Shown: piece by piece, positions 27,581 through 38,844 of the stretch
Layout: each line of letters opens with the position of its first letter
Numbering within the stretch: the stretch's first letter is position 1
Sequence record: MT446398.1
From: Escherichia virus TH24
DNA: 52,806 bases
Strand: one strand, 5' to 3'
The notes under the pieces: generated by a model
The model's input: only the letters and a program-made list of their open reading frames with translations
Databases searched by the model: none
Told to the model about the DNA's origin: nothing
Made by a program: the position numbers and the translations under genes

Positions 27581-27769
27581 CAATATTATAATTTTATTTT
27601 TGGGCCAGCGGGGAGGGGAAGCCCAACGTCCTATCGGACTTAAATACGGTCCCTACCCCAACTTTTTCCTGTAGCCTATCGGCTTTCAAACAACTCCAAG
27701 TTAGGCGCTTCGCTTATGAGTCAAGGTCAAAGTCTCCGTGCTGTTGTATCAATGGCACAGGTTTGTGGT

Positions 27770-27784
27770 ATTAGTTGGACGTGA
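27770..27784 (+). promoter_or_regulatory. Variant of the conserved ATTAGTTGGATGTGA motif upstream of the RNAP gene
   Basis: ATTAGTTGGACGTGA, one mismatch to the core, 77 nt upstream of the RNAP ATG; a TATAAT hexamer lies at 27806-27811. Confidence 0.3.
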
Positions 27785-27860
27785 ATTGTGTAATGGCTAC
27801 GCTATTATAATCCGTTTCATTCAAATCATACACAATCTTGGAGACTTACAAATGACTACT

Positions 27861-29792
27861 ATCACTACTCAAACTATCAAATCTGTTGTTCCTGCTATCA
27901 CTGCTCTGGTATACCGTGCCAAAGAGAAGCAGAACTATATGCAGCCTCAGACTTGTGCTATTGCTGCCTTAGCCATATTCAAGATGATGACGTCTTTCAC
28001 GCGTGATGACGTTATTCCGGCTATCTCGATGGTTGAACTGGCTTCTGCTTCCATTGCTGATGCCAACCGCTACAACAACGACTTAAAGTCAATGCACTAT
28101 GTTGACCCAGCTATCAACCTGATTGGTCTGGCTAAACACTTCGGTTTCATCACCATGAACGAGGACAAATCGTTCCAGATGACTGATGCATGGGTTGAAC
28201 TGGTTACAACCAAAGATACCTCAGTTCCATTCACTGAGCGTGTAACAAATGAATCTCGTCGTAAGCCTTTCGTTAAAGGTGGCAAAGTTAAGCCATCCAA
28301 GACTCTGAAAGCTGCGATTGAATTCCTGCAAGATACTGAATATCACGTTGATGCAACAATGGTTAAGGTTATCTCTTCCATGTTAGAACAACGTACATTT
28401 GGTGGCTTACAGATGCCAGAAGCAATCCAGACTGAACTCCATGTTTGGAACAATGCTGTAGCAATGGTTGGTCAGGACACTCTGTTCTCTGACTACTTTG
28501 CTGATAACCGTGGTCGTCTGTATCATGTAGCATGTGCTGGTCCTAACCCACAATCATCTGACTTTGCTCGTTGCCTGTATTCCCACAATGTTGAGAACAC
28601 TGTGAGCAAGTTTAATGCTGATGGTTCAACAACTCTGGCATACAACATGTTCATGCTTGAGCTGGAAGATATCGCTGGTGGAGACTGGACTTCTGCAAAA
28701 CGTTTAACTTATGTTGCTCAGAATCCAGCTGGTTCACTTGCTCGCATGTTGAATATGCCTAAAGGTGAGCGTCCTTCTAAGCCATTCACTTATGTTCGTC
28801 TGGCTCTGGATTGGTTCAAGTTTGAGACTACAGGTGAGTGCGATTCTCGTGTAGGCTTTGGCTTAGATGCTAAATGTTCTGGTACTCAATACTTGGCATT
28901 CATTGCTGGTAATATGGAGATGGCTCGTGCAACAGGTCTGGTTGATTCTGAGACTAAAGCATCTGACCCATACCAGTTATCTCTTCGTGAACTGTTGAAG
29001 TTGCTTGACCGTTCTTCAATGAAACCATCCGCTGAAATTATGGATGAATTCTTGAATCCGAAAGCTGGTCGTAAGTTTATCAAAACTCCATACATGGCTA
29101 TCCAATATGGTGGTGGTAAAGCTGCACTAACTGGTTCTTCTGATTTCATCGCATACATGACAGAAGCTCTCCAGATTCCTATGGAGAAAGCTGATGCATT
29201 TGCTGAACTTTGTGTAGAAGCAATCCATAACGCATTGGGTGCTAAGATTAACATGTTCATCGAGAAAGCTGCTGATGCTGCATTTGCTCGTTGTGTTGAA
29301 CTCAACAAAGAGTACATCACATATAAGCACACTGATGGCCAAGTTGTAATGAAGCCTTGCTTCCCATCTCGTGATGTTTGTGATGCGTTCAGCATTCGTG
29401 TTGACTCTCAAACTCGTGTCATCTTTGGTCAGATTCAGGAGAATAAGCCTTGGACCATTCGTGAGTCCAATCCAACTAAGGAAGAATTCAAGCGTACTTT
29501 CGTTGTTAACTACATTCAAGGTATTGACGCATTGGTTGCTCGTACTGTTGCAGTCAAAGCTAAAGAAGCTGGTCTTCGTGGCTTTACTTCAATTCACGAT
29601 TGCTTCCGTTGCTGCTTGGCTGATGCTCCTAAAATGATGGAAGTGATTCGTTCTGCTTATATTGAAATCTTTGTTCATAATAATCAGTTTGAATCTTTGT
29701 CTAAGCAACTTGGTGGCATCAACATGTACCATGAGAACATCGTAACAGAAGAGCTTCTGATGAGCGAACACGCTTACTATTTCTGTCAATAA
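27861..29792 (+). CDS. Single-subunit (T7-like) DNA-dependent RNA polymerase, compact form
   Basis: GFGLDAKCSGTQ (motif A Asp), RKFIKTPYMAIQYGGG (motif B), FTSIHDCF (motif C Asp). ATG 27861 with GGAGA RBS; 643 aa versus 883 in T7. Confidence 0.8.
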   Translation: MTTQTIKSVVPAITALVYRAKEKQNYMQPQTCAIAALAIFKMMTSFTRDDVIPAISMVELASASIADANRYNNDLKSMHYVDPAINLIGLAKHFGFITMNEDKSFQMTDAWVELVTTKDTSVPFTERVTNESRRKPFVKGGKVKPSKTLKAAIEFLQDTEYHVDATMVKVISSMLEQRTFGGLQMPEAIQTELHVWNNAVAMVGQDTLFSDYFADNRGRLYHVACAGPNPQSSDFARCLYSHNVENTVSKFNADGSTTLAYNMFMLELEDIAGGDWTSAKRLTYVAQNPAGSLARMLNMPKGERPSKPFTYVRLALDWFKFETTGECDSRVGFGLDAKCSGTQYLAFIAGNMEMARATGLVDSETKASDPYQLSLRELLKLLDRSSMKPSAEIMDEFLNPKAGRKFIKTPYMAIQYGGGKAALTGSSDFIAYMTEALQIPMEKADAFAELCVEAIHNALGAKINMFIEKAADAAFARCVELNKEYITYKHTDGQVVMKPCFPSRDVCDAFSIRVDSQTRVIFGQIQENKPWTIRESNPTKEEFKRTFVVNYIQGIDALVARTVAVKAKEAGLRGFTSIHDCFRCCLADAPKMMEVIRSAYIEIFVHNNQFESLSKQLGGINMYHENIVTEELLMSEHAYYFCQ

Positions 29793-29859: not shown

Positions 29860-30570
29860 TCCCAATATTCAAGCAATATTGCTGCATGTAATATTGTTTC
29901 AATATTCGACATTAGTTGGATGTGAAGTAACAGAATACGGAGAAATATTCCGCATGTCATGTTGAAATCATTCTAGAAACATTTCAGCATGTCAACTAAA
30001 CACACAGTGTTGTAATGATGTGGCAATCATTGAACTCCCTGTCTTTGGCCGGACAAAGTTCCAGCAACCATGTGTGAAGTAGGATTATCATTCGAAACTG
30101 TTCTTCAACTAAAGCATGACCAATTGTTCCGATGGTTGTCGTCGTCCTATTATCAAGGCCCACCCACAAGCCGGGATTATCATAGACAAGTTGGAACTTT
30201 TGGACATGCTTCTTTCTTTCAATCAGAATTCGAAAGAAGAGAAGAGTCGGAGCAAAGCCTCTCGTTTTCACACAGAAGCCGCCCCGATTTTGAGCAACAA
30301 ATATTGTGACAATATTGTCGCAGTATGGCATGTAAATATTGCTACAAATTGGCATGTTAGAATGTGGCAGAATTGTTAGAGGACTAATCACCTCGAAGAT
30401 ACAATTGTCTACCAATCCGGCATGTTAATTTTGTAACAGTATTTGTGCCAATTTCGCATGTAATAGCTGTATCAGTATTGACCCAATATTCTTGCAACCC
30501 GCATGAATACTGGCTTCCAGCCAAGCGAAGGCTTTATCATCGCATGTAAATATTGTGACAATATTGGGAT
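29860..30570. repeat. Cluster of palindromic CAATATTG / GCATGTAAATATTG motifs (operator- or iteron-like array)
   Basis: At least ten copies of (C)AATATT(G), several as GCATGTAAATATTG[C/T][T/G]ACAA[T/A]ATTGG, within ~700 bp lacking a convincing ORF; further copies at 27337-27590. Confidence 0.45.
29909..29927 (+). promoter_or_regulatory. Candidate phage-RNAP promoter (motif ACATTAGTTGGATGTGAAG)
   Basis: Perfect copy of the recurring 17-bp motif, directly after the RNAP terminator. Confidence 0.4.
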
Positions 30571-33077: not shown

Positions 33078-33361
33078 ACAAGAATTCGATTTTACGTTAT
33101 GTTGGTGAAACTAATTACAACTTCACCAAAGGTAAGAAATACAAAATCGTCGCTGGTCGTGGTGACGGAGTTCCTCGCAACAATGGTACACTCGGTGCGT
33201 ATATTCAATCTCCTTTGGGTTTTGTCGTTAATGATGATAACCGCAGTTTATCTTATCGTACATTCTCCGATAATTGGGAACTTGTGAAAGATTCTGGCGA
33301 AGTAAGCTGGTATAAACCTGAATCAAATATGGACCCGATTCCTATATCGAAGGTGATGTGA
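33074..33361 (+). CDS. Hypothetical early protein
   Basis: 95 aa, ATGA overlap. Confidence 0.5.
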   Translation: MNKNSILRYVGETNYNFTKGKKYKIVAGRGDGVPRNNGTLGAYIQSPLGFVVNDDNRSLSYRTFSDNWELVKDSGEVSWYKPESNMDPIPISKVM

Positions 33362-33518
33362 GGATTGAATATTAAATACCTAATACTGACACTTACTATT
33401 AGCGTTGTTATACTTACGATTGTTGTAGGCTTTGCCAACCTGCTGCTATTACAAGCAGGAATATAAACTGGCGCGTTAAATTAACAAGGAGCATTCATTG
33501 AGTGTTCCTGATTAATTC

Positions 33519-33537
33519 AACATTAGTTGGATGTGAG
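33519..33537 (+). promoter_or_regulatory. Candidate phage-RNAP promoter (motif ACATTAGTTGGATGTGAGAG)
   Basis: Perfect motif copy ~75 nt upstream of the 33610 ORF. Confidence 0.4.
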
Positions 33538-33609
33538 AGACAAAGCTATTCCGTGGTTAGCAATGTCACTGAAACTTAAACCGTAAATTAACTTAAGAGA
33601 ATCTTAATC

Positions 33610-33987
33610 ATGGCACAATATTCAGACGTAAACACTGGCATCATCGGTTCCAATGGCTTCAAGAAAGACCCAAAACATCCTGACGTTCGTGGACGTATTA
33701 ACGTTGACGGAGTCTGGTATTGGGTGTCCGGTTGGAACAAGCAAGCCAATGGTAATGAATTTACCTCGCTGGCCCTCACCATCATGACCCAAGAACAGGT
33801 CGATGAAATGATGCGTAAGCGTGAAGAGAAAGCTAAAGCCAAAGCTCAACCTCAAGCCGCTGCACAACAGCAACAGCAACGCCAGCAACCTGCTGCACAA
33901 CAGCAAGCACCTGTTCAGCAACAGACGCAGAACAGTAACTATAATCCGAACGAGCCGAAAGACTTCGACGACGACATTCCTTTCTAA
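33610..33987 (+). CDS. Small protein ending in the bacterial SSB C-terminal tip DFDDDIPF (SSB-tail mimic or minimal SSB)
   Basis: 125 aa; Gln/Ala/Pro-rich linker (QPQAAAQQQQQRQQPAAQQQAPVQQQ) then DFDDDIPF at the extreme C-terminus; N-terminal region is too short for a canonical OB fold. Confidence 0.6.
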   Translation: MAQYSDVNTGIIGSNGFKKDPKHPDVRGRINVDGVWYWVSGWNKQANGNEFTSLALTIMTQEQVDEMMRKREEKAKAKAQPQAAAQQQQQRQQPAAQQQAPVQQQTQNSNYNPNEPKDFDDDIPF

Positions 33988-34000
33988 TTGGAGATGCCCT

Positions 34001-34120
34001 ATGAAAATTTTATGTTTTATAGGGCTACATAATTGGGAAATTTCGCATGAAAACGATTATGTAACCTTTTGGGTGTGTAAGCACTGTTCAGCAATGCGTG
34101 AGGAATATCATGGCAACTAA
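34001..34120 (+). CDS. Small Cys/His-rich protein (39 aa)
   Basis: GGAGA RBS; MKILCFIGLHNWEISHENDYVTFWVCKHCSAMREEYHGN. Confidence 0.35.
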   Translation: MKILCFIGLHNWEISHENDYVTFWVCKHCSAMREEYHGN

Positions 34121-35015
34121 CGTTATTGAAATACCTGCCAATTTGGTCAAAACTGGCGACGTGGTAATTCATGAAGATAAAGAGTATCTGATTGGATATG
34201 TCTTTAGATTGGGTGTAGTTCAACTGCAATATTCTGGTGGATGTTTCAATTTTGAGTGGGACCAGGCAGTCAAAATCTTGGATAAACGTCCTACTACAGA
34301 CTCCTTTGCAAAACCGGGCGCAACAACACGCGCAGTATTGGCAAGCCAAGTTCGACCTGGAAACACCCTATCTTACGGAATCAAATTCTTTGAGATAAAG
34401 GAAGTTAAAGACCTTGGGGAAATTCCTGAAAGTGCGGTTCGCTTAATACATGAAACAGGCTACTTTGACTTTTCACTTAACCGTATAGTCCACATTGTTA
34501 ACGAGCCACCAGCTTTGGAAACTCCAACAGCAACATACAATACGCAGATAACACCGGTATTTCTTCCTTATGAGGAAGCAGTGAAACCATTCTCAGATGA
34601 AGAGGATGTTAAAGGCGCTGATGTAGAAGTTGGTGATGTTATTTGGTACAAAGGCAATTGGGCAACTGTTACAAATGTGTACAAGCACCCAAACTCACCA
34701 TACAATAAAGTCAATGTTGACTACGGCGACGTAAAAGGTTTGCAAGTACGTCTGGTATTAACTGGAACTTATTCGAGAAAGGTAAGAGCAGTAATGGAAA
34801 CTTTAAATATCCAAAATGCAATCGAAGCACAGCGTATTCTTCTGCAAAAGCTGGAGCAAATGCTAGACTTACAGCAACTTGCACCAACAGCAGATGGCAA
34901 GATTGCAATCGGCAACTGCAACATTCGCGTGGACAAGGCATCAATCGTTAAAGCCGCACGCGATGAAATGAAAGCTGCCGCAAGCAAATCAACAGAGCTT
35001 ATCAAGAAGCTGTAA
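34110..35015 (+). CDS. Hypothetical protein (301 aa)
   Basis: ATG 34110 with GAGGA RBS (track start 34098 is GTG). Confidence 0.55.
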   Translation: MATNVIEIPANLVKTGDVVIHEDKEYLIGYVFRLGVVQLQYSGGCFNFEWDQAVKILDKRPTTDSFAKPGATTRAVLASQVRPGNTLSYGIKFFEIKEVKDLGEIPESAVRLIHETGYFDFSLNRIVHIVNEPPALETPTATYNTQITPVFLPYEEAVKPFSDEEDVKGADVEVGDVIWYKGNWATVTNVYKHPNSPYNKVNVDYGDVKGLQVRLVLTGTYSRKVRAVMETLNIQNAIEAQRILLQKLEQMLDLQQLAPTADGKIAIGNCNIRVDKASIVKAARDEMKAAASKSTELIKKL

Positions 35016-35071
35016 TTAACAGAGGTCATTCCACTTCGAGTGGCCTCGATTAATTATTATTAGGAGGAATT

Positions 35072-35293
35072 ATGGCAAGTTATTATGCAACAATGCTTAC
35101 ACGAGACTTGAAAGGTGAGTTGAGCGATGCTTGTGGTAGCTTTGGAAATATTGCTATCGACGGAAGATTGACTTTGCAAAATGCTATCTCAGTTGCTGGA
35201 GAAAGTCTTTCAAAAGAGAGTGGATACGAGGGATTTAAAATAGAACTCTTATCCAGACCTTGGGCATATAGAAATCCACTTGTAACGAAGTAG
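35072..35293 (+). CDS. Hypothetical protein
   Basis: 73 aa, strong TAGGAGGA RBS. Confidence 0.5.
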   Translation: MASYYATMLTRDLKGELSDACGSFGNIAIDGRLTLQNAISVAGESLSKESGYEGFKIELLSRPWAYRNPLVTK

Positions 35294-35295
35294 TC

Positions 35296-35646
35296 ATGAA
35301 AACTTTATACATTGCACTCACAATTTTGTTCGGAGTATTCGCATTCAAATCAGAGGCATCTGTTCGCAGCTTCCAGTGTGGCGGGTACAAAATGTCTGTT
35401 GAAACAATTACAATGAGCCAGCCACTCATTGCAACAATTTCTTTGCACGAAGGTACATGGATTGAGATTCCAGATAATGGAAATCCTAACCCAATGTCAA
35501 CAGTGTTCTACAATACACAGAGCAGTAAGCTGGCCTTAGTTGGTGTTGACGCTGAGGAACGTTTGGTGCTACAGATTTATCGTGACATTGACTTCTTTCA
35601 TGCCAAATTTCCATTGTTATCAACCTATTGTAAGGAAGTTAAATGA
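35296..35646 (+). CDS. Secreted or periplasmic protein with signal peptide
   Basis: N-terminal MKTLYIALTILFGVFAFKSEA signal-peptide-like sequence. Confidence 0.5.
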   Translation: MKTLYIALTILFGVFAFKSEASVRSFQCGGYKMSVETITMSQPLIATISLHEGTWIEIPDNGNPNPMSTVFYNTQSSKLALVGVDAEERLVLQIYRDIDFFHAKFPLLSTYCKEVK

Positions 35647-35870
35647 CGTCATCCGAATTTACCATTGATGGAGTACCATACTTACTTGAATCCAGTTGTG
35701 AATATCGCCACTGGTCAGTAGTTCGCGAAAGAGTTATCAAATTCTTAGAGCGAGTGGGGAAAGAGGGAGCGATTCTGACTACGGCCACTGTAGAAGGAAC
35801 AACCGAGATTAATCGGGAGCTTGTATCTTTCAAATTAACTATCTATCCATCAGGAAATACTTTCCAATGA
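35643..35870 (+). CDS. Hypothetical protein
   Basis: 75 aa, ATGA overlap. Confidence 0.45.
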   Translation: MTSSEFTIDGVPYLLESSCEYRHWSVVRERVIKFLERVGKEGAILTTATVEGTTEINRELVSFKLTIYPSGNTFQ

Positions 35871-36244
35871 ATATTGATATTAAAGATTTACCAGCCTATG
35901 CCAAGTCCGTGGAAACATCAGTACTTCGTCAGCAAGAATATGTAGCACGTCTTGCAGCAATGTTCGAAGCAGGTTCTCGTGAAATTCGTCTGTTTGACCA
36001 GGTGAACGACGAGTGGACCTATGTTCCTTTGCAGGAATATTGGCAAATGCAGCAAAATATTCTGTTAGCACAGATGACCTTTCATGGTCAAATCACTGCT
36101 GCTCATACGGCAGGCCAAGCGGCAGTTAACACAGCCCTTGAGGGTGTAGAAAAGCCAATTGGTGGTATGGGTGAGCTTTCCGGTATTGCATTATCAGCAG
36201 GAAACTCCTTTAAAGTAGCTGGTTTATATGCGGGGGCCAAGTAA
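35867..36244 (+). CDS. Hypothetical protein
   Basis: 125 aa, ATGA overlap. Confidence 0.5.
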   Translation: MNIDIKDLPAYAKSVETSVLRQQEYVARLAAMFEAGSREIRLFDQVNDEWTYVPLQEYWQMQQNILLAQMTFHGQITAAHTAGQAAVNTALEGVEKPIGGMGELSGIALSAGNSFKVAGLYAGAK

Positions 36245-36523
36245 TTGATTTCTATTGACCAAGTTCCAGTTGAGTTGGGCAAGGCAAAAAGTAAGTTGGA
36301 TGGTGCCAAATCAGACCTTCTCACCTTTGAAGAGTGCTCAACCCACGATAAGACGAAAGTTTTCATCGAGTGTATTAATGGCTGGGTCTTAATTGATTCG
36401 GCGGTAATACAATCACTCCTCACTAAAGAGGTTGAAACTGCACAAGCAGGTTTTGACGAGTTAGAAAGCATCAATACTTTGCTAAATAACACTCTGAGTG
36501 ACGCATTAAAGGGCAAGCAATGA
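36245..36523 (+). CDS. Hypothetical protein (non-ATG start)
   Basis: Frame opens with TTG directly after the upstream TAA; ATGA overlap with the M15 peptidase gene at its 3' end. Confidence 0.35.
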   Translation: MISIDQVPVELGKAKSKLDGAKSDLLTFEECSTHDKTKVFIECINGWVLIDSAVIQSLLTKEVETAQAGFDELESINTLLNNTLSDALKGKQ

Positions 36524-36915
36524 ATGTTAAGTTAGGTCAACGCTCAATCGACCGACTTAAGGGAGTAAATCCTTCATTAGTTGCAGTTTTCAAACGGGCA
36601 TGTGAAACCATGCCTTTTGATGTGACTGTTTTGGAAGGTTTACGCTCTTATGAACGTCAACAAGAGCTTTTAAAGCAAGGTGCAACCAAAGTCTCAGTTA
36701 GCCGACACATGTCAGGCAACGCTTTGGACATTGCACCGTATCCAATTGACTGGAATGACCTTGAACGATTCCAAATTGTAGCTGAACACATGTTCAAAGC
36801 CGCAGAAGAGCTTGGAATTGTTATTCGTTGGGGTGGAACATGGGAACGTTCATTCACTAAGCCAGTGAAATGGGCTAAATTCCTCGACGCACCGCACTTC
36901 GAACTTCCAACATAA
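36520..36915 (+). CDS. Peptidase M15 family peptidoglycan hydrolase (T5-endolysin-like)
   Basis: VSRHMSGNALDIAPYPIDWNDLERF matches the SxHxxGxAxD...DWND zinc-peptidase motif of L-alanyl-D-glutamate peptidases. Confidence 0.65.
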   Translation: MNVKLGQRSIDRLKGVNPSLVAVFKRACETMPFDVTVLEGLRSYERQQELLKQGATKVSVSRHMSGNALDIAPYPIDWNDLERFQIVAEHMFKAAEELGIVIRWGGTWERSFTKPVKWAKFLDAPHFELPT

Positions 36916-36923
36916 CTTCATCA

Positions 36924-37214
36924 ATGGAGCATCCGATGGAATATCAGGAAATACCGAAAGAATTAGAGCGTATGCAGGAGCGTACGTCTCGTGCAGAGGC
37001 AGAACTCCACCAACATTTGTCAAATCATGTGCAAGATTCCCGTAGTCTGAGACACGAAATTGAGGTTGGCAGATGCTGTTATCTAGTAACATATGAAGAG
37101 AAGACCGCCATCCTGGACATACTAGTAAAGGGCGGGAAAGGGCGAATCGAACAGCTCAAAATCCTTAATATGGAACTTCAAGGTATGTGGGAGAAACTCA
37201 ATGCAAAACGATAA
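36924..37214 (+). CDS. Hypothetical protein
   Basis: 96 aa, charged and helical-looking. Confidence 0.45.
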   Translation: MEHPMEYQEIPKELERMQERTSRAEAELHQHLSNHVQDSRSLRHEIEVGRCCYLVTYEEKTAILDILVKGGKGRIEQLKILNMELQGMWEKLNAKR

Positions 37215-37749
37215 CATTACTAAAGCAGTGGAACAACTTAAGTCCTGGCGTAGAGATGAAACCTTATTGGTTCGTTTCTACACAGGCGAAAACAATTCCG
37301 AGTATGAAGATGCTTGGATTGATGGCCTGGCATGGCGGCTCTATGACTTCAACATGCCAGAATATTTGCACGAAGAATATGGCATCGAGTACCCAGAAAC
37401 AGGGACTTACGACATTCTCGAATCAAGAGATGAGGATGTTACAGAAGTTTGCTTTGTTGATGGCCTATTCAGCCTACGCAAGTATGACAAATTCAATGAA
37501 CTTTTAAATGATACTGATTTGTTTGTAATTCTTGCTGCATTCCGTAGTGGTGAGATTGATATTTTCACTGTGAATGATTTGAACGACATGTTCATCACTC
37601 GTTGCGACTCAATTGCAGACTACTTAAAGCAAAGTGAGGCATTGGATATTCCAGGCCGTCTTGCTCCATATATTGATTGGGAAGCTATTGTCCGAGATTA
37701 CGGAAGCGACTACATCTTCTCCGAAGGAGTATTGTTCTTAAATGTGTGA
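37201..37749 (+). CDS. ArdA-like antirestriction protein (putative DNA mimic)
   Basis: 182 aa, strongly acidic; C-terminal LAPYIDWEAIVRDYGSDYIFSEGVLFLNV resembles the conserved ArdA C-terminal block. Confidence 0.45.
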   Translation: MQNDNITKAVEQLKSWRRDETLLVRFYTGENNSEYEDAWIDGLAWRLYDFNMPEYLHEEYGIEYPETGTYDILESRDEDVTEVCFVDGLFSLRKYDKFNELLNDTDLFVILAAFRSGEIDIFTVNDLNDMFITRCDSIADYLKQSEALDIPGRLAPYIDWEAIVRDYGSDYIFSEGVLFLNV

Positions 37750-37978
37750 TTTAAATATTAACTCAATCAAGCCAGAAGATATTCTCTTCCACCAGCCACG
37801 CGGCCACTACTATCGAATCCTGTTTGCTACGAAGATTAAAACCCACTGCGGTCAGTGGGTAGATGGTTTTGCTTACCAGGAAGTTAAGAAGTATGGAAAT
37901 CATACCTTCTTTGGTGTTGATTCAGTAATTTATTCAAGACCAAAGGAGTTGTTTGACTCAGATTGGAAAACACTATAG
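37742..37978 (+). CDS. Hypothetical protein
   Basis: 78 aa. Confidence 0.45.
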   Translation: MCDLNINSIKPEDILFHQPRGHYYRILFATKIKTHCGQWVDGFAYQEVKKYGNHTFFGVDSVIYSRPKELFDSDWKTL

Positions 37979-38844
37979 TTCCAGGCGGGTTTCTTCGAAG
38001 TGCCAAGCGGGTTTTGTACTCGCATTGGCCTTCGGCTTTAGTCTGAAACATTAGTGGGATTTGATTCTGACCTCTTAGGGAAGAAAGGCATTATAACCAA
38101 TCGCCAAATTGGTGTCAAGCACTTTCTTCATTTATTTTAATTTATTCTTATTATTCTTTTTGTTTGGAATATTGGAATAATTCTGAAACATTAATTGGAA
38201 TTGAAGAAACAACATCAGATAATAGCTTTGTAACTCGGTAGACCGTTACGGCCGATAACGTGCGAGAATGTTCGACTCATTCTACAAAGTTATTTTCGAT
38301 GGAATGTTTCCATCATATACATTTATCTTTTAACATAGGCCATAGGGCCGGAATACTTCTTCGCAGAAAAGCTATTCACTTGTTATAGGCGATGTATTGG
38401 GATGAATTGGAACTAAATAAGCAAGCTGTTAGGGCTGAATAATTAGAGGGTTGTGCCTCATGCTTATGTTAGTCATTCGAAAATAGGTTTGTGCCACAAG
38501 CCGCTGGTGCTCCGAGGAAGTCGGACAAACAGGGCTTAGAGTGGCATAATCCGCACAAAACCAAGCCACCAGCCACGCCAACGCTGGGATTTGGGTGAAT
38601 GTATTGGGAAGGGTTACAAAGCCTCTGTGACCTCCGTAGCTTGCCAGGCTGCGGCGCAGTTATGATACGCAGGTCGCACCCTAACGGGAGTAATCCTTCG
38701 CCAATGCAGTTATCCAGAATTGACACAAACGGTAGGCAGTGGCCCGATTTTCGGCCTTCCTGCGCTACTCTGTGGCCTGTTTCATAGGCCAAAAGATGAG
38801 AAGAGAGAAGTCACAAACACTGAATCGAAAATTGGAGAGTTCCT
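37979..38844. other. ORF-free region with motif variants and a GC-rich segment (candidate structured RNA or regulatory region)
   Basis: 866 bp without RBS-supported ORF; promoter-motif variants at 38048 and 38188; the 38460-38800 segment is visibly GC-richer than the genome. Confidence 0.35.

What the first reader, a model, noticed from the sequence alone, without database searches (positions are those of the whole stretch)
37201..37749. Acidic early protein with ArdA-like C-terminal signature (candidate anti-restriction DNA mimic)
182 aa, rich in Asp/Glu, with a C-terminal YIDWEA...RDYGSDY...F block resembling the conserved ArdA region. It lies in the early region downstream of the RNAP gene, where anti-defence genes are expected.
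Basis: partly seen in the sequence, partly recalled or inferred. Interest (0 to 1): 0.5.

Follow-up and report, generated by a model that had tools for sequence, protein, structure and literature searches.

The report
Divergent ArdA-like anti-restriction gene, already annotated
This phage gene encodes a very acidic protein that is a distant but genuine relative of ArdA, a DNA-shaped decoy that blocks bacterial type I restriction enzymes; its counterparts in related phages already carry that label, though no test of it turned up in the papers I could search.

Summary
The ORF at 37201-37749 (+) is real: 182 aa, 21% Asp/Glu, net charge -24, pI 4.1, the most acidic long ORF in the window. The window is a phiEcoM-GJ1-like myovirus (Chaseviridae, Carltongylesvirus).

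The ArdA reading holds at the level of homology and fold:
- The protein alone scores below Pfam's ArdA cut-off (19.9 vs 27 bits).
- 61 of 70 proteins recovered by its clade profile are Pfam ArdA members.
- Disjoint clade and canonical profiles align at 99.4% probability (E 5e-21).

The "early region" claim is loose. The gene lies 7.4 kb past the RNAP, behind the third phage-type promoter, after the SSB and endolysin genes, and it is a syntenic core gene in three Chaseviridae genera.

Orthologues have been annotated "putative antirestriction protein" since phiEcoM-GJ1 (record EF460875), and PHROG 14321 carries the same label. I found no experimental test. Verdict: correct call, ordinary, already known. 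The molecular target is still unproven.

The parts
37201..37749 (+). CDS of the 182-aa ArdA-like acidic protein (stop codon included)
   Evidence: ORF list and sequence. PHROG 14321 'anti-restriction protein' E = 1.6e-50. Pfam ArdA 19.9 bits, E = 1.2e-3. dN/dS = 0.17 against phiEcoM-GJ1 gp22.
37189..37194 (+). Shine-Dalgarno GGGAGA, 6 nt upstream of the ATG
   Evidence: Sequence. The same RBS is listed for the ST32 orthologue in PMC6266442.
37201..37254 (+). N-terminal extension (residues 1-18, predicted helix 2-15) with no counterpart in Tn916 ArdA
   Evidence: Alignment mapping puts 2W82 residue 2 at window residue 18. Secondary structure from the AF2 model.
37255..37464 (+). Domain-1-like region (residues 19-88): three strands (22-27, 35-40, 70-75) plus short helices; includes the family-wide W39
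   Evidence: Domain borders mapped from 2W82 residues 3-61. W23 aligns with W39, which is invariant in the clade and present in 14 of 15 canonical sequences. Model secondary structure.
37465..37587 (+). Domain-2-like helical region (residues 89-129)
   Evidence: Mapped from 2W82 residues 62-103. Helices 92-102 and 107-116 in the model.
37588..37746 (+). Domain-3-like region (residues 130-182): three helices and three strands; in ArdA this is the dimerisation and MTase-binding domain
   Evidence: Mapped from 2W82 residues 104-165. It is the best-aligned part in hhalign. Model secondary structure: H138-144, H152-157, H160-170, E131-134, E171-174, E177-180.
37639..37680 (+). Counterpart of the ArdA 'anti-restriction motif' / dimer interface (residues 147-160: ALDIPGRLAPYIDW)
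   Evidence: Mapping 2W82 to window: E129-D149, V130-I150, P131-P151, L134-L154, Y137-Y157, I138-I158, D139-D159, Y140-W160. Motif defined as residues 126-140 in PMC2731889.
37693..37698 (+). R165-D166, counterpart of ArdA R145-D146 (D146 hydrogen-bonds Y137 of the partner monomer)
   Evidence: R and D are invariant in the 15 canonical sequences. The role of D146 is from PMC2731889.
37732..37737 (+). L178-F179, counterpart of the essential ArdA 'VF motif' (I160-F161)
   Evidence: F is invariant in all 22 clade sequences and in 13 of 15 canonical ones. The motif is described in PMC2731889.
33518..33537 (+). Phage-RNAP-type promoter match (identical to the annotated 'putative phage promoter 3' of phiEcoM-GJ1); nearest such promoter upstream of the gene
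   Evidence: Consensus search seeded with the eight promoters annotated in EF460875. Prediction only.
38046..38205 (+). Tandem phage-type promoter matches P4 (38046-38065) and P5 (38186-38205), which open the next transcription unit and so mark the 3' limit of the unit holding the gene
36924..37214 (+). Upstream 96-aa ORF that overlaps the ArdA-like start by 14 nt; function unknown; an ORF of similar size sits at the same position in Faunus and 4HA13
   Evidence: No Pfam or PHROG hit. Synteny.
37742..37978 (+). Downstream 78-aa ORF that overlaps the ArdA-like stop by 8 nt (ATGTGTGA); phrog_2652, function unknown
   Evidence: 42-73% identical across three genera.

Best explanation
The gene encodes a divergent homologue of the ArdA DNA-mimic proteins. 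It has the same three-domain elongated fold, the same domain-3 dimer-interface residues and a conserved acidic surface pattern.

The most likely mechanism, inferred from the family and not shown here, runs as follows. Two monomers join head to head through domain 3 to form a bent, DNA-like rod. The rod's carboxylates imitate phosphates. It occupies the DNA-binding groove of the HsdS-HsdM2 core of host type I restriction-modification enzymes, so the enzymes can no longer bind and cut unmodified phage DNA.

In this phage the gene is a vertically inherited core gene. It sits in the SSB-to-endolysin transcription unit behind a phage-RNAP-type promoter, so the protein would be made after the phage RNAP rather than as the very first product.

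Shown here: ORF, composition, homology, predicted fold, motif conservation, purifying selection, synteny. Inferred: dimerisation, DNA mimicry, type I enzymes as the target, timing of expression.
For: Homology:
- Pfam ArdA E = 1.2e-3 across most of the profile.
- All 11 clade members hit ArdA.
- The clade profile searched against 1.84 billion representatives returns 86 hits. Of the 70 aligned, 61 are PF07275 members (best E = 1.9e-39) and no other family appears.
- Disjoint clade and canonical profiles: hhalign 99.4%, E = 5e-21, 140 columns.

Fold:
- AF2 pLDDT 93, pTM 0.82.
- Foldseek against the PDB gives one significant hit, 2W82 ArdA, over 175 columns.
- The top BFVD hits are phage 'antirestriction' proteins.
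- The secondary-structure order matches the description of three domains in PMC2731889.

Motifs: Y157 I158 D159, L154, P151, D149, R165 D166 and L178 F179 align with ArdA Y137 I138 D139, L134, P131, E129, R145 D146 and I160 F161.

Charge:
- Net -24, the most acidic long ORF in the window.
- Net charge stays between -15 and -29 in all 22 clade members despite divergence to about 25% identity.
- Per-column acidity correlates with canonical ArdA: r = 0.57, reached by 0 of 5000 permutations.

Real and constrained gene: dN/dS = 0.17; syntenic in Carltongylesvirus, Faunusvirus and Sabourvirus.

Need for protection: the genome does not avoid type I sites. Across nine specificities there are 118 sites against 103 +/- 10 expected, with 5 EcoKI sites.

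Prior from the literature: six diverse ArdAs work in E. coli against families IA-ID (PMC2731889). Diverse ArdAs all bind M.EcoKI (PMC3969726). Even one-third-size ArdA fragments relieve EcoKI and EcoR124II restriction (PMC12548430).
Against: I found no experiment for any Chaseviridae member.

The single protein is below Pfam's gathering score: 19.9 against 27 bits. Neither the protein nor a clade-only profile reaches 2W82 in a sequence search of the PDB. The clade profile against the single 2W82 sequence aligns only 26 residues.

The protein is less acidic than canonical ArdA: -0.13 against about -0.175 net charge per residue, and 15 basic residues against 6 in Tn916 ArdA.

Of the seven acidic residues said to carry the phosphate mimicry across the dimer interface:
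- D109 is Arg (R134).
- E122/E123 fall in a 4-residue deletion specific to this sub-clade.
- Only D111, D115 and E129 are clearly kept.

The gene sits 7.4 kb past the RNAP, behind a phage-type promoter. EcoKI and EcoAI sites lie upstream of it. The protein would therefore appear later than T7 Ocr or leading-region plasmid ArdA, which is awkward for protecting DNA that has already been injected.

Dimerisation and surface geometry could not be modelled here.
Confidence: 0.6

Rival explanations
1. It is an ArdA-fold DNA mimic whose main target is not a type I enzyme. Instead it blocks another host DNA-binding machine during the replication phase, for example BREX PglX/BrxX, RecBCD, H-NS, endonuclease V or host RNA polymerase. 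Alternatively it is a multi-target decoy.
For: - Position and likely timing: the gene lies in a phage-RNAP-driven unit with the SSB gene, not at the leading end.
- It is a core, syntenic gene across genera rather than a variable accessory gene.
- Clade-specific changes at the mimicry surface: R134 in place of D109, loss of the E122/E123 segment, more basic residues, and conserved clade-only basic positions such as R25.
- Precedents in the literature: the Fletchervirus ArdA-like gp119 inhibits endonuclease V (PMC13091555). ArdA and Ocr show selectivity that depends on the system tested, and DNA mimics are reported to affect H-NS-dependent transcription (PMC10149784 and its reference list). Ocr inhibits BREX (PMC7261183 abstract).
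Against: - The dimer-interface and VF motifs are kept, and the acidic columns are shared with canonical ArdA.
- Every ArdA tested so far from very different sources, including fragments, acts on type I enzymes.
- Even gp119 is modelled to fit a type I enzyme as well.
- Nothing in the sequence points to one particular alternative target.
Confidence: 0.25
2. It is an acidic protein that keeps the ArdA fold but has no decoy function, for example a structural, chaperone or regulatory partner of the two small overlapping ORFs or of the adjacent endolysin.
For: - The gene is tightly packed and probably translationally coupled with conserved flanking ORFs of unknown function.
- It lies next to the endolysin gene in all genera examined.
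- No functional data exist.
Against: - Strong acidity is maintained across the whole clade while the sequence drifts to about 25% identity.
- The acidic positions coincide with those of canonical ArdA. This is what selection for mimicry would predict, and it has no obvious reason in a structural partner.
- Neither flanking ORF has a recognisable lysis or structural family.
Confidence: 0.07
3. It is a decaying or non-functional remnant, or a chance ORF.
For: None beyond the sub-threshold Pfam score.
Against: - dN/dS = 0.17.
- The full-length ORF is conserved in 52 phage records and in three genera with the same synteny.
- It has a good RBS and a confident fold prediction.
Confidence: 0.02

Closest known systems
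phiEcoM-GJ1 gp22 (ABR68734.1, 'putative antirestriction protein') and its Carltongylesvirus orthologues; PHROG 14321
   Same: Orthologue: 79% identical, same length, same position between the endolysin gene and the P4/P5 promoter gap. The PHROG match is full length, E = 1.6e-50. The closest public proteins are 94-95% identical.
   Different: Nothing of substance. This is another allele of the same gene. In several records the orthologue is mislabelled 'tail fiber protein' or 'hypothetical protein'.
ArdA of conjugative transposon Tn916 (Orf18; PDB 2W82, also listed with the identical sequence in entries 7BTO and 7BTR)
   Same: - Dimer-interface motif YID, RD pair, VF motif and W23 equivalent all kept.
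- Strongly acidic, with shared acidic columns.
   Different: - Only about 18-22% identity.
- An 18-residue N-terminal helix is added.
- Longer helical inserts in domain 1.
- Net charge -24 with 15 basic residues, against -31 with 6.
- D109 becomes Arg, and the E122/E123 segment is deleted.
- It is carried by a virulent myovirus as a core gene behind a phage-RNAP-type promoter, not in the early-expressed region of a conjugative element.
T7 Ocr (gp0.3)
   Same: Phage-encoded acidic dimeric DNA mimic against type I enzymes, in a phage that also encodes a single-subunit RNAP. The resemblance is in function only, and the mechanism is taken from the literature (PMC3439906 abstract; PMC3969726).
   Different: No sequence relationship: an Ocr family did not appear even at E up to 10 in the Pfam scan. 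Ocr is a different, smaller fold (116 aa). From my own knowledge, ocr is the first gene to enter and is transcribed by host RNAP. Here the gene lies 7.4 kb beyond the RNAP gene.
Fletchervirus NCTC 12673 gp119 (ArdA-like phage protein that inhibits endonuclease V)
   Same: A phage-encoded ArdA-like acidic protein in a virulent myovirus. It shows that the fold can be pointed at other DNA enzymes (PMC13091555).
   Different: According to that paper, gp119 matches only ArdA domains 2-3, whereas the protein here aligns over all three domains. This Chaseviridae genome gives no indication of a deoxyinosine-type DNA modification. No direct comparison was made here.
Small ArdA proteins (sArdN, sArdC)
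   Same: Homologous to parts of ArdA. sArdC covers the dimer-interface region that is also the best-conserved part here. Both are active against EcoKI and EcoR124II (PMC12548430).
   Different: They are about one third the size. The protein here is full length plus an N-terminal extension.

Membership tests
ArdA (Pfam PF07275; prototype Tn916 Orf18, PDB 2W82) | Operational: the single sequence scores above Pfam's gathering cut-off (27 bits) | tested here: not met
   19.9 bits, E = 1.2e-3, residues 32-172 to profile positions 39-146 of 155. This is a curated cut-off, not a biological property. I therefore file the protein as an ArdA homologue ('ArdA-like', PHROG 14321) lying just outside Pfam's present boundary.
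ArdA (Pfam PF07275; prototype Tn916 Orf18, PDB 2W82) | Demonstrable common ancestry with bona fide ArdA sequences | tested here: met
   61 of 70 proteins retrieved by the clade profile are PF07275 members, and no other family appears. Disjoint profiles A3 and A4 give hhalign 99.4%, E = 5e-21 over 140 columns. The mixed profile A2 reaches 2W82 over its full length at E = 5.9e-9.
ArdA (Pfam PF07275; prototype Tn916 Orf18, PDB 2W82) | Three small domains in a row: a three-stranded sheet with a short helix, then a helical bundle, then three strands with three helices | tested here: met
   [not shown]
ArdA (Pfam PF07275; prototype Tn916 Orf18, PDB 2W82) | 'Anti-restriction motif' / dimer-interface residues (L134, Y137, I138, D139, D146 in Tn916 ArdA) | tested here: met
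   L154, Y157, I158, D159 and D166 align with them, as do P151 (P131) and R165 (R145). Definitions are from PMC2731889. The L127 equivalent is uncertain: A147 in one alignment, and L148 is adjacent.
ArdA (Pfam PF07275; prototype Tn916 Orf18, PDB 2W82) | Essential VF motif (I160-F161) in the middle strand of domain 3 | tested here: met
   L178-F179. F is invariant in all 22 clade members, and the model places it in strand 177-180.
ArdA (Pfam PF07275; prototype Tn916 Orf18, PDB 2W82) | Large excess of Asp/Glu, placed at conserved positions | tested here: met
   39 acidic against 15 basic residues, pI 4.08. Acidity is kept across the clade. Per-column acidic fraction correlates with canonical ArdA: r = 0.57, reached by 0 of 5000 permutations. 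Charge density is lower than canonical: -0.13 against -0.175 per residue.
ArdA (Pfam PF07275; prototype Tn916 Orf18, PDB 2W82) | Conserved acidic residues that continue the phosphate mimicry across the dimer interface (D109, D111, D112, D115, E122, E123, E129) | tested here: inconclusive
   Kept: D136 (D111), D140 (D115), D149 (E129). Changed: R134 (D109). S137 (D112) is also Ser in 13 of the 14 other canonical sequences used. E122/E123 fall in a 4-residue deletion specific to the Carltongylesvirus sub-clade.
ArdA (Pfam PF07275; prototype Tn916 Orf18, PDB 2W82) | Head-to-head homodimer that mimics about 42 bp of bent B-DNA | not testable with these tools
ArdA (Pfam PF07275; prototype Tn916 Orf18, PDB 2W82) | Binds the type I MTase core and relieves type I restriction (and modification) in vivo | not testable with these tools
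   This needs an experiment. No published test of a Chaseviridae member was found.
Ocr (T7 gp0.3) | Sequence membership of the Ocr family | tested here: not met
   The Pfam scan at E up to 10 lists only ArdA, DUF6429 and HTH_33. The structure searches give ArdA as the only significant match.

The most novel reading that the evidence does not exclude
The Chaseviridae ArdA-like protein is a core DNA mimic transcribed by the phage RNAP. Its altered interface charges (Arg at the D109 position, loss of the E122/E123 segment, more basic residues) and its late position would mean it has been retargeted from type I enzymes to another host DNA-binding machine that matters during replication, such as BREX, RecBCD, H-NS or a repair nuclease. 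This would parallel Fletchervirus gp119, which inhibits endonuclease V.
Probability: 0.2. Interest if true: 0.5.

Novelty: already known. Interest (0 to 1): 0.15.

Why it matters
If it is active, the protein helps explain how these coliphages and Yersinia phages infect strains that carry type I restriction systems, even though the genome holds the expected number of type I recognition sites. That bears on host-range prediction for candidate therapeutic phages.

The annotation is old but rests on similarity alone, so a simple plating assay would turn a label carried by dozens of genomes into a fact. The one point of genuine curiosity is timing. A decoy made only after the phage RNAP, in a phage with a contractile tail, would have to act later than T7 Ocr or plasmid ArdA. 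That leaves room for a different or additional target.

Tried and rejected
Searches that gave nothing:
- Single-sequence and clade-only profile searches of PDB sequences did not reach ArdA. The top weak hits (LPXTG surface protein, PriL primase subunit) have E > 0.01 and cover short stretches, so I treated them as noise.
- hhalign of the narrow clade profile against the single 2W82 sequence aligned only the 26-residue C-terminal motif (probability 14.7%). This was resolved by building two broader, disjoint profiles.
- NCBIfam gave nothing relevant.
- Rfam at gathering thresholds gave no hit anywhere in the window.
- PADLOC was not searched.

- The AFDB50 fold library was unavailable.

Literature:
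- The original phiEcoM-GJ1 genome paper is not held.
- Searches for any restriction or anti-restriction experiment on Chaseviridae or Carltongylesvirus found only annotation tables.

Ideas considered and set aside:
- Type I site avoidance as an alternative protection strategy: not seen, with 118 sites observed against 103 +/- 10 expected.
- A nearby sigma-70 promoter that could give immediate-early expression: consensus matches in 33300-38900 are no more frequent than in shuffled sequence (10 against 12.2 +/- 3.6), so this carries no evidential weight.
- A role in the lysis cassette: neither flanking small ORF matches a holin, spanin or any annotated family.
Full report
**1. What is in the sequence**

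An ATG-initiated ORF runs from 37201 to the TGA ending at 37749 on the + strand and encodes 182 aa. A GGGAGA ribosome-binding site sits 6 nt upstream.

The protein has 39 Asp+Glu (21.4%) and 15 Lys+Arg, a net charge of -24 and a pI of 4.08. It is the most acidic of the 72 ATG-started + strand ORFs of at least 80 aa in the window. R165-D166-Y167-G168-S169-D170-Y171 ... F179.

**2. Genome and context**

The window is a phiEcoM-GJ1-like myovirus of the family Chaseviridae, genus Carltongylesvirus. The best nucleotide match over 36500-38500 is Escherichia phage MLP1 at 92.4% (taxonomy).

- The single-subunit RNAP gene is at 27738-29792 (Pfam RNA_pol E = 2.7e-18).
- A consensus built from the eight 'putative phage promoters' annotated in EF460875 finds matches in the window at 29907, 30757, 33518, 38046, 38186, 39821 and 40153.
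- The candidate therefore lies 7.4 kb past the RNAP gene, in the unit that begins at the 33518 promoter.
- That unit contains the SSB gene (33610-33987), several small ORFs, an M15-peptidase endolysin gene (36520-36915) and a 96-aa ORF that overlaps the candidate's start by 14 nt.
- The candidate is followed by a 78-aa ORF that overlaps its stop by 8 nt.

The order SSB ... endolysin - small ORF - ArdA-like - small ORF - non-coding gap also holds in phiEcoM-GJ1, Erwinia phage Faunus (Faunusvirus) and Escherichia phage 4HA13 (Sabourvirus). Across these genera the protein has drifted to roughly 30-35% identity.

So this is a vertically inherited core gene. If the promoter predictions are right, it is transcribed by the phage RNAP.

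**3. Is it ArdA?**

Direct profile tests:
- Pfam ArdA (PF07275) matches residues 32-172 to profile positions 39-146 of 155. The score is only 19.9 bits (E = 1.2e-3), below the 27-bit gathering score.
- PHROG 14321 'anti-restriction protein' matches end to end at E = 1.6e-50. That family is essentially this clade.
- NCBIfam gives nothing.
- Neither the protein nor a profile of close relatives reaches the solved ArdA in a sequence search of the PDB.
- The narrow profile against the single 2W82 sequence aligns only the 26-residue C-terminal motif.

Transitive and profile-profile tests settle the question:
- A profile of 11 clade members was searched exhaustively against 1.84 billion representatives and returned only 86 proteins at E <= 1e-3.
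- Of the 70 that were aligned, 61 are PF07275 members in their own right (best E = 1.9e-39). No other Pfam family appears.
- I then built two disjoint alignments. A3 holds 22 phage-type clade sequences, none of which hits 2W82 on its own. A4 holds 2W82 plus 14 sequences that do.
- hhalign gives 99.4% probability, E = 5e-21, over 140 columns.

**4. Fold**

With the 70-sequence alignment, AlphaFold2 gives mean pLDDT 93.0 and pTM 0.82.

The order of secondary-structure elements fits the three ArdA domains described for Tn916 Orf18 (PMC2731889), apart from the extra first element:
- helix 2-15 (extra, not in Tn916 ArdA);
- strands 22-27, 35-40 and 70-75 with short helices;
- helices 78-84, 92-102 and 107-116;
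- then H127-130, E131-134, H138-144, H152-157, H160-170, E171-174 and E177-180.

Structure searches:
- Foldseek against the PDB returns a single significant hit, 2W82_B (E = 1.4e-4, prob 1.00, TM 0.56/0.61, 175 columns, 20% identity). Everything else has E > 1.
- In BFVD the top hits are 'antirestriction' proteins of other phages, led by other Chaseviridae.

**5. Residue-level comparison (definitions)**

Kept (Tn916 ArdA to window):
- Y137, I138, D139 to Y157, I158, D159: heart of the 'anti-restriction motif' 126-140, which forms the dimer interface.
- L134 to L154, P131 to P151, E129 to D149.
- R145-D146 to R165-D166. D146 hydrogen-bonds Y137 of the partner monomer.
- The essential VF motif I160-F161 to L178-F179.
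- W23 to W39.

Different:
- D109 to R134, a charge reversal.
- E122/E123 fall in a 4-residue deletion peculiar to the Carltongylesvirus sub-clade (visible).
- An 18-residue N-terminal helix is added.
- Charge density is lower: -0.13 per residue against about -0.175, and 15 basic residues against 6 in Tn916 ArdA.

Acidity is nevertheless maintained in all 22 clade members, with net charge from -15 to -29. The per-column acidic fraction correlates with that of canonical ArdA (r = 0.57; none of 5000 column permutations reaches this). One caveat applies: an aligner tends to place like residues together, so part of that correlation is built in.

dN/dS against phiEcoM-GJ1 gp22 is 0.17.

**6. Mechanism**

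The best-supported reading is a divergent ArdA-type DNA mimic. It would form a head-to-head dimer through domain 3, with an acidic surface that imitates bent B-DNA. The dimer would occupy the DNA groove of the type I HsdS-HsdM2 core and so block restriction. The mechanism is taken from PMC2731889 and PMC3969726.

Supporting considerations:
- The genome does not avoid type I sites. Nine specificities (site sequences recalled from my own knowledge of REBASE) give 118 sites against 103 +/- 10 expected, including 5 EcoKI sites. The phage is therefore a substrate.
- The family's activity is robust. Six diverse ArdAs work in E. coli on families IA-ID. Diverse ArdAs all bind M.EcoKI. One-third-size fragments still work.

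Weaknesses:
- No experiment exists on this clade.
- Expression is late.
- The interface charges are altered.
- I could not model the dimer or its surface.

I put 0.6 on this reading. Homology to ArdA on its own I put at about 0.95.

**7. Rivals**

- (a) The same fold aimed at another DNA-binding target, or at several: 0.25. Supporting points are the position, the core-gene status and the clade-specific surface changes. Precedents are Fletchervirus gp119, which inhibits endonuclease V, the system-dependent selectivity of ArdA and Ocr, and Ocr, which inhibits BREX (abstract).
- (b) An acidic partner of neighbouring genes with no decoy role: 0.07.
- (c) A relic or chance ORF: 0.02. Conservation and dN/dS contradict this.

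**8. Known or new?**

Orthologues are labelled 'putative antirestriction protein' in phiEcoM-GJ1 (EF460875, ABR68734.1; the record's note cites similarity to NP_511210 and NP_857871). The same kind of label appears in ST32, Mangalitsa, flopper, Bp7, Bp10, PO103-1, SKA49, Faunus, 4HA13 and others. PHROGs carries the label too. The closest public proteins are 94-95% identical.

I found no functional study. The BASEL collection papers do not mention Chaseviridae.

What remains open is experimental confirmation and the true target, given the late position of the gene. Interest 0.15.

Noticed in passing
window 38090-38118 (- strand), within the ORF-free gap 37979-38845: A perfect sigma-70 consensus (TTGACA-17-TATAAT, 12 of 12) on the minus strand, lying between the tandem phage promoters P4 (38046) and P5 (38186). 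It is the only such site in the window, and phiEcoM-GJ1 has one at the same place (10569). Both hexamers are invariant in Carltongylesvirus, Faunusvirus and Sabourvirus while the spacer varies. It points leftward, towards the 78-aa ORF and the ArdA-like gene. It could drive an antisense or small RNA, or act as a host-RNAP binding site.
   Followed up: partly
window 38125-38205: An AT-rich block that is almost invariant across the three genera (TAATTTATTCTTATT...TTTGGAATATTGGAATAAT) lies immediately upstream of phage promoter P5, with P4 about 140 bp to its left. From my own knowledge, tandem phage promoters plus an AT-rich stretch resemble the T7 primary replication origin. Not tested.
   Followed up: no
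window 37742-37978 (+): A 78-aa ORF overlaps the ArdA-like stop codon (ATGTGTGA). It belongs to phrog_2652 (function unknown, E = 5.7e-16). At 42-73% identity across genera it is better conserved than the ArdA-like protein, with invariant HxPR, W, YQEV and RP..LFD.DW positions. It may be a functional partner.
   Followed up: partly
window 36924-37214 (+): A 96-aa ORF overlaps the ArdA-like start by 14 nt and has no Pfam or PHROG match. An ORF of similar size occupies the same slot in Faunus and 4HA13.
   Followed up: no
public records matching window 37201-37749: Inconsistent annotation of the orthologue. It is called 'tail fiber protein' in MLP1 (confirmed by the protein's own name). The same label overlaps the match in PYps3T, PYps4T, PYps16T, PYps23T and FXie-2024a. 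It is called 'replication inhibitor protein' in a record named Staphylococcus phage Pel53, which is 82% identical to these coliphages, so the host label of that record looks doubtful.
   Followed up: no
window 36520-36915 (+): The M15-peptidase endolysin gene sits in the SSB / early-middle transcription unit, directly upstream of the ArdA cassette rather than next to the structural genes. The arrangement is conserved in all Chaseviridae examined.
   Followed up: no
whole window, densest at about 12-27 kb: Sites matching CCAN7RTGC (EcoprrI specificity, recalled from memory) occur 28 times against 14.5 +/- 3.8 expected and are concentrated in the structural-gene half. EcoBI sites are somewhat scarce (6 against 11.4 +/- 3.4). 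This may be a codon or composition effect.
   Followed up: no
window 35022-35047 (+): A 10-bp-stem hairpin (GAGGTCATTCCACTTCGAGTGGCCTC) lies in the gap between the ORFs ending at 35015 and starting at 35296, inside the transcription unit that holds the ArdA-like gene. It could be a terminator, attenuator or processing site that would affect how much transcript reaches the gene.
   Followed up: no
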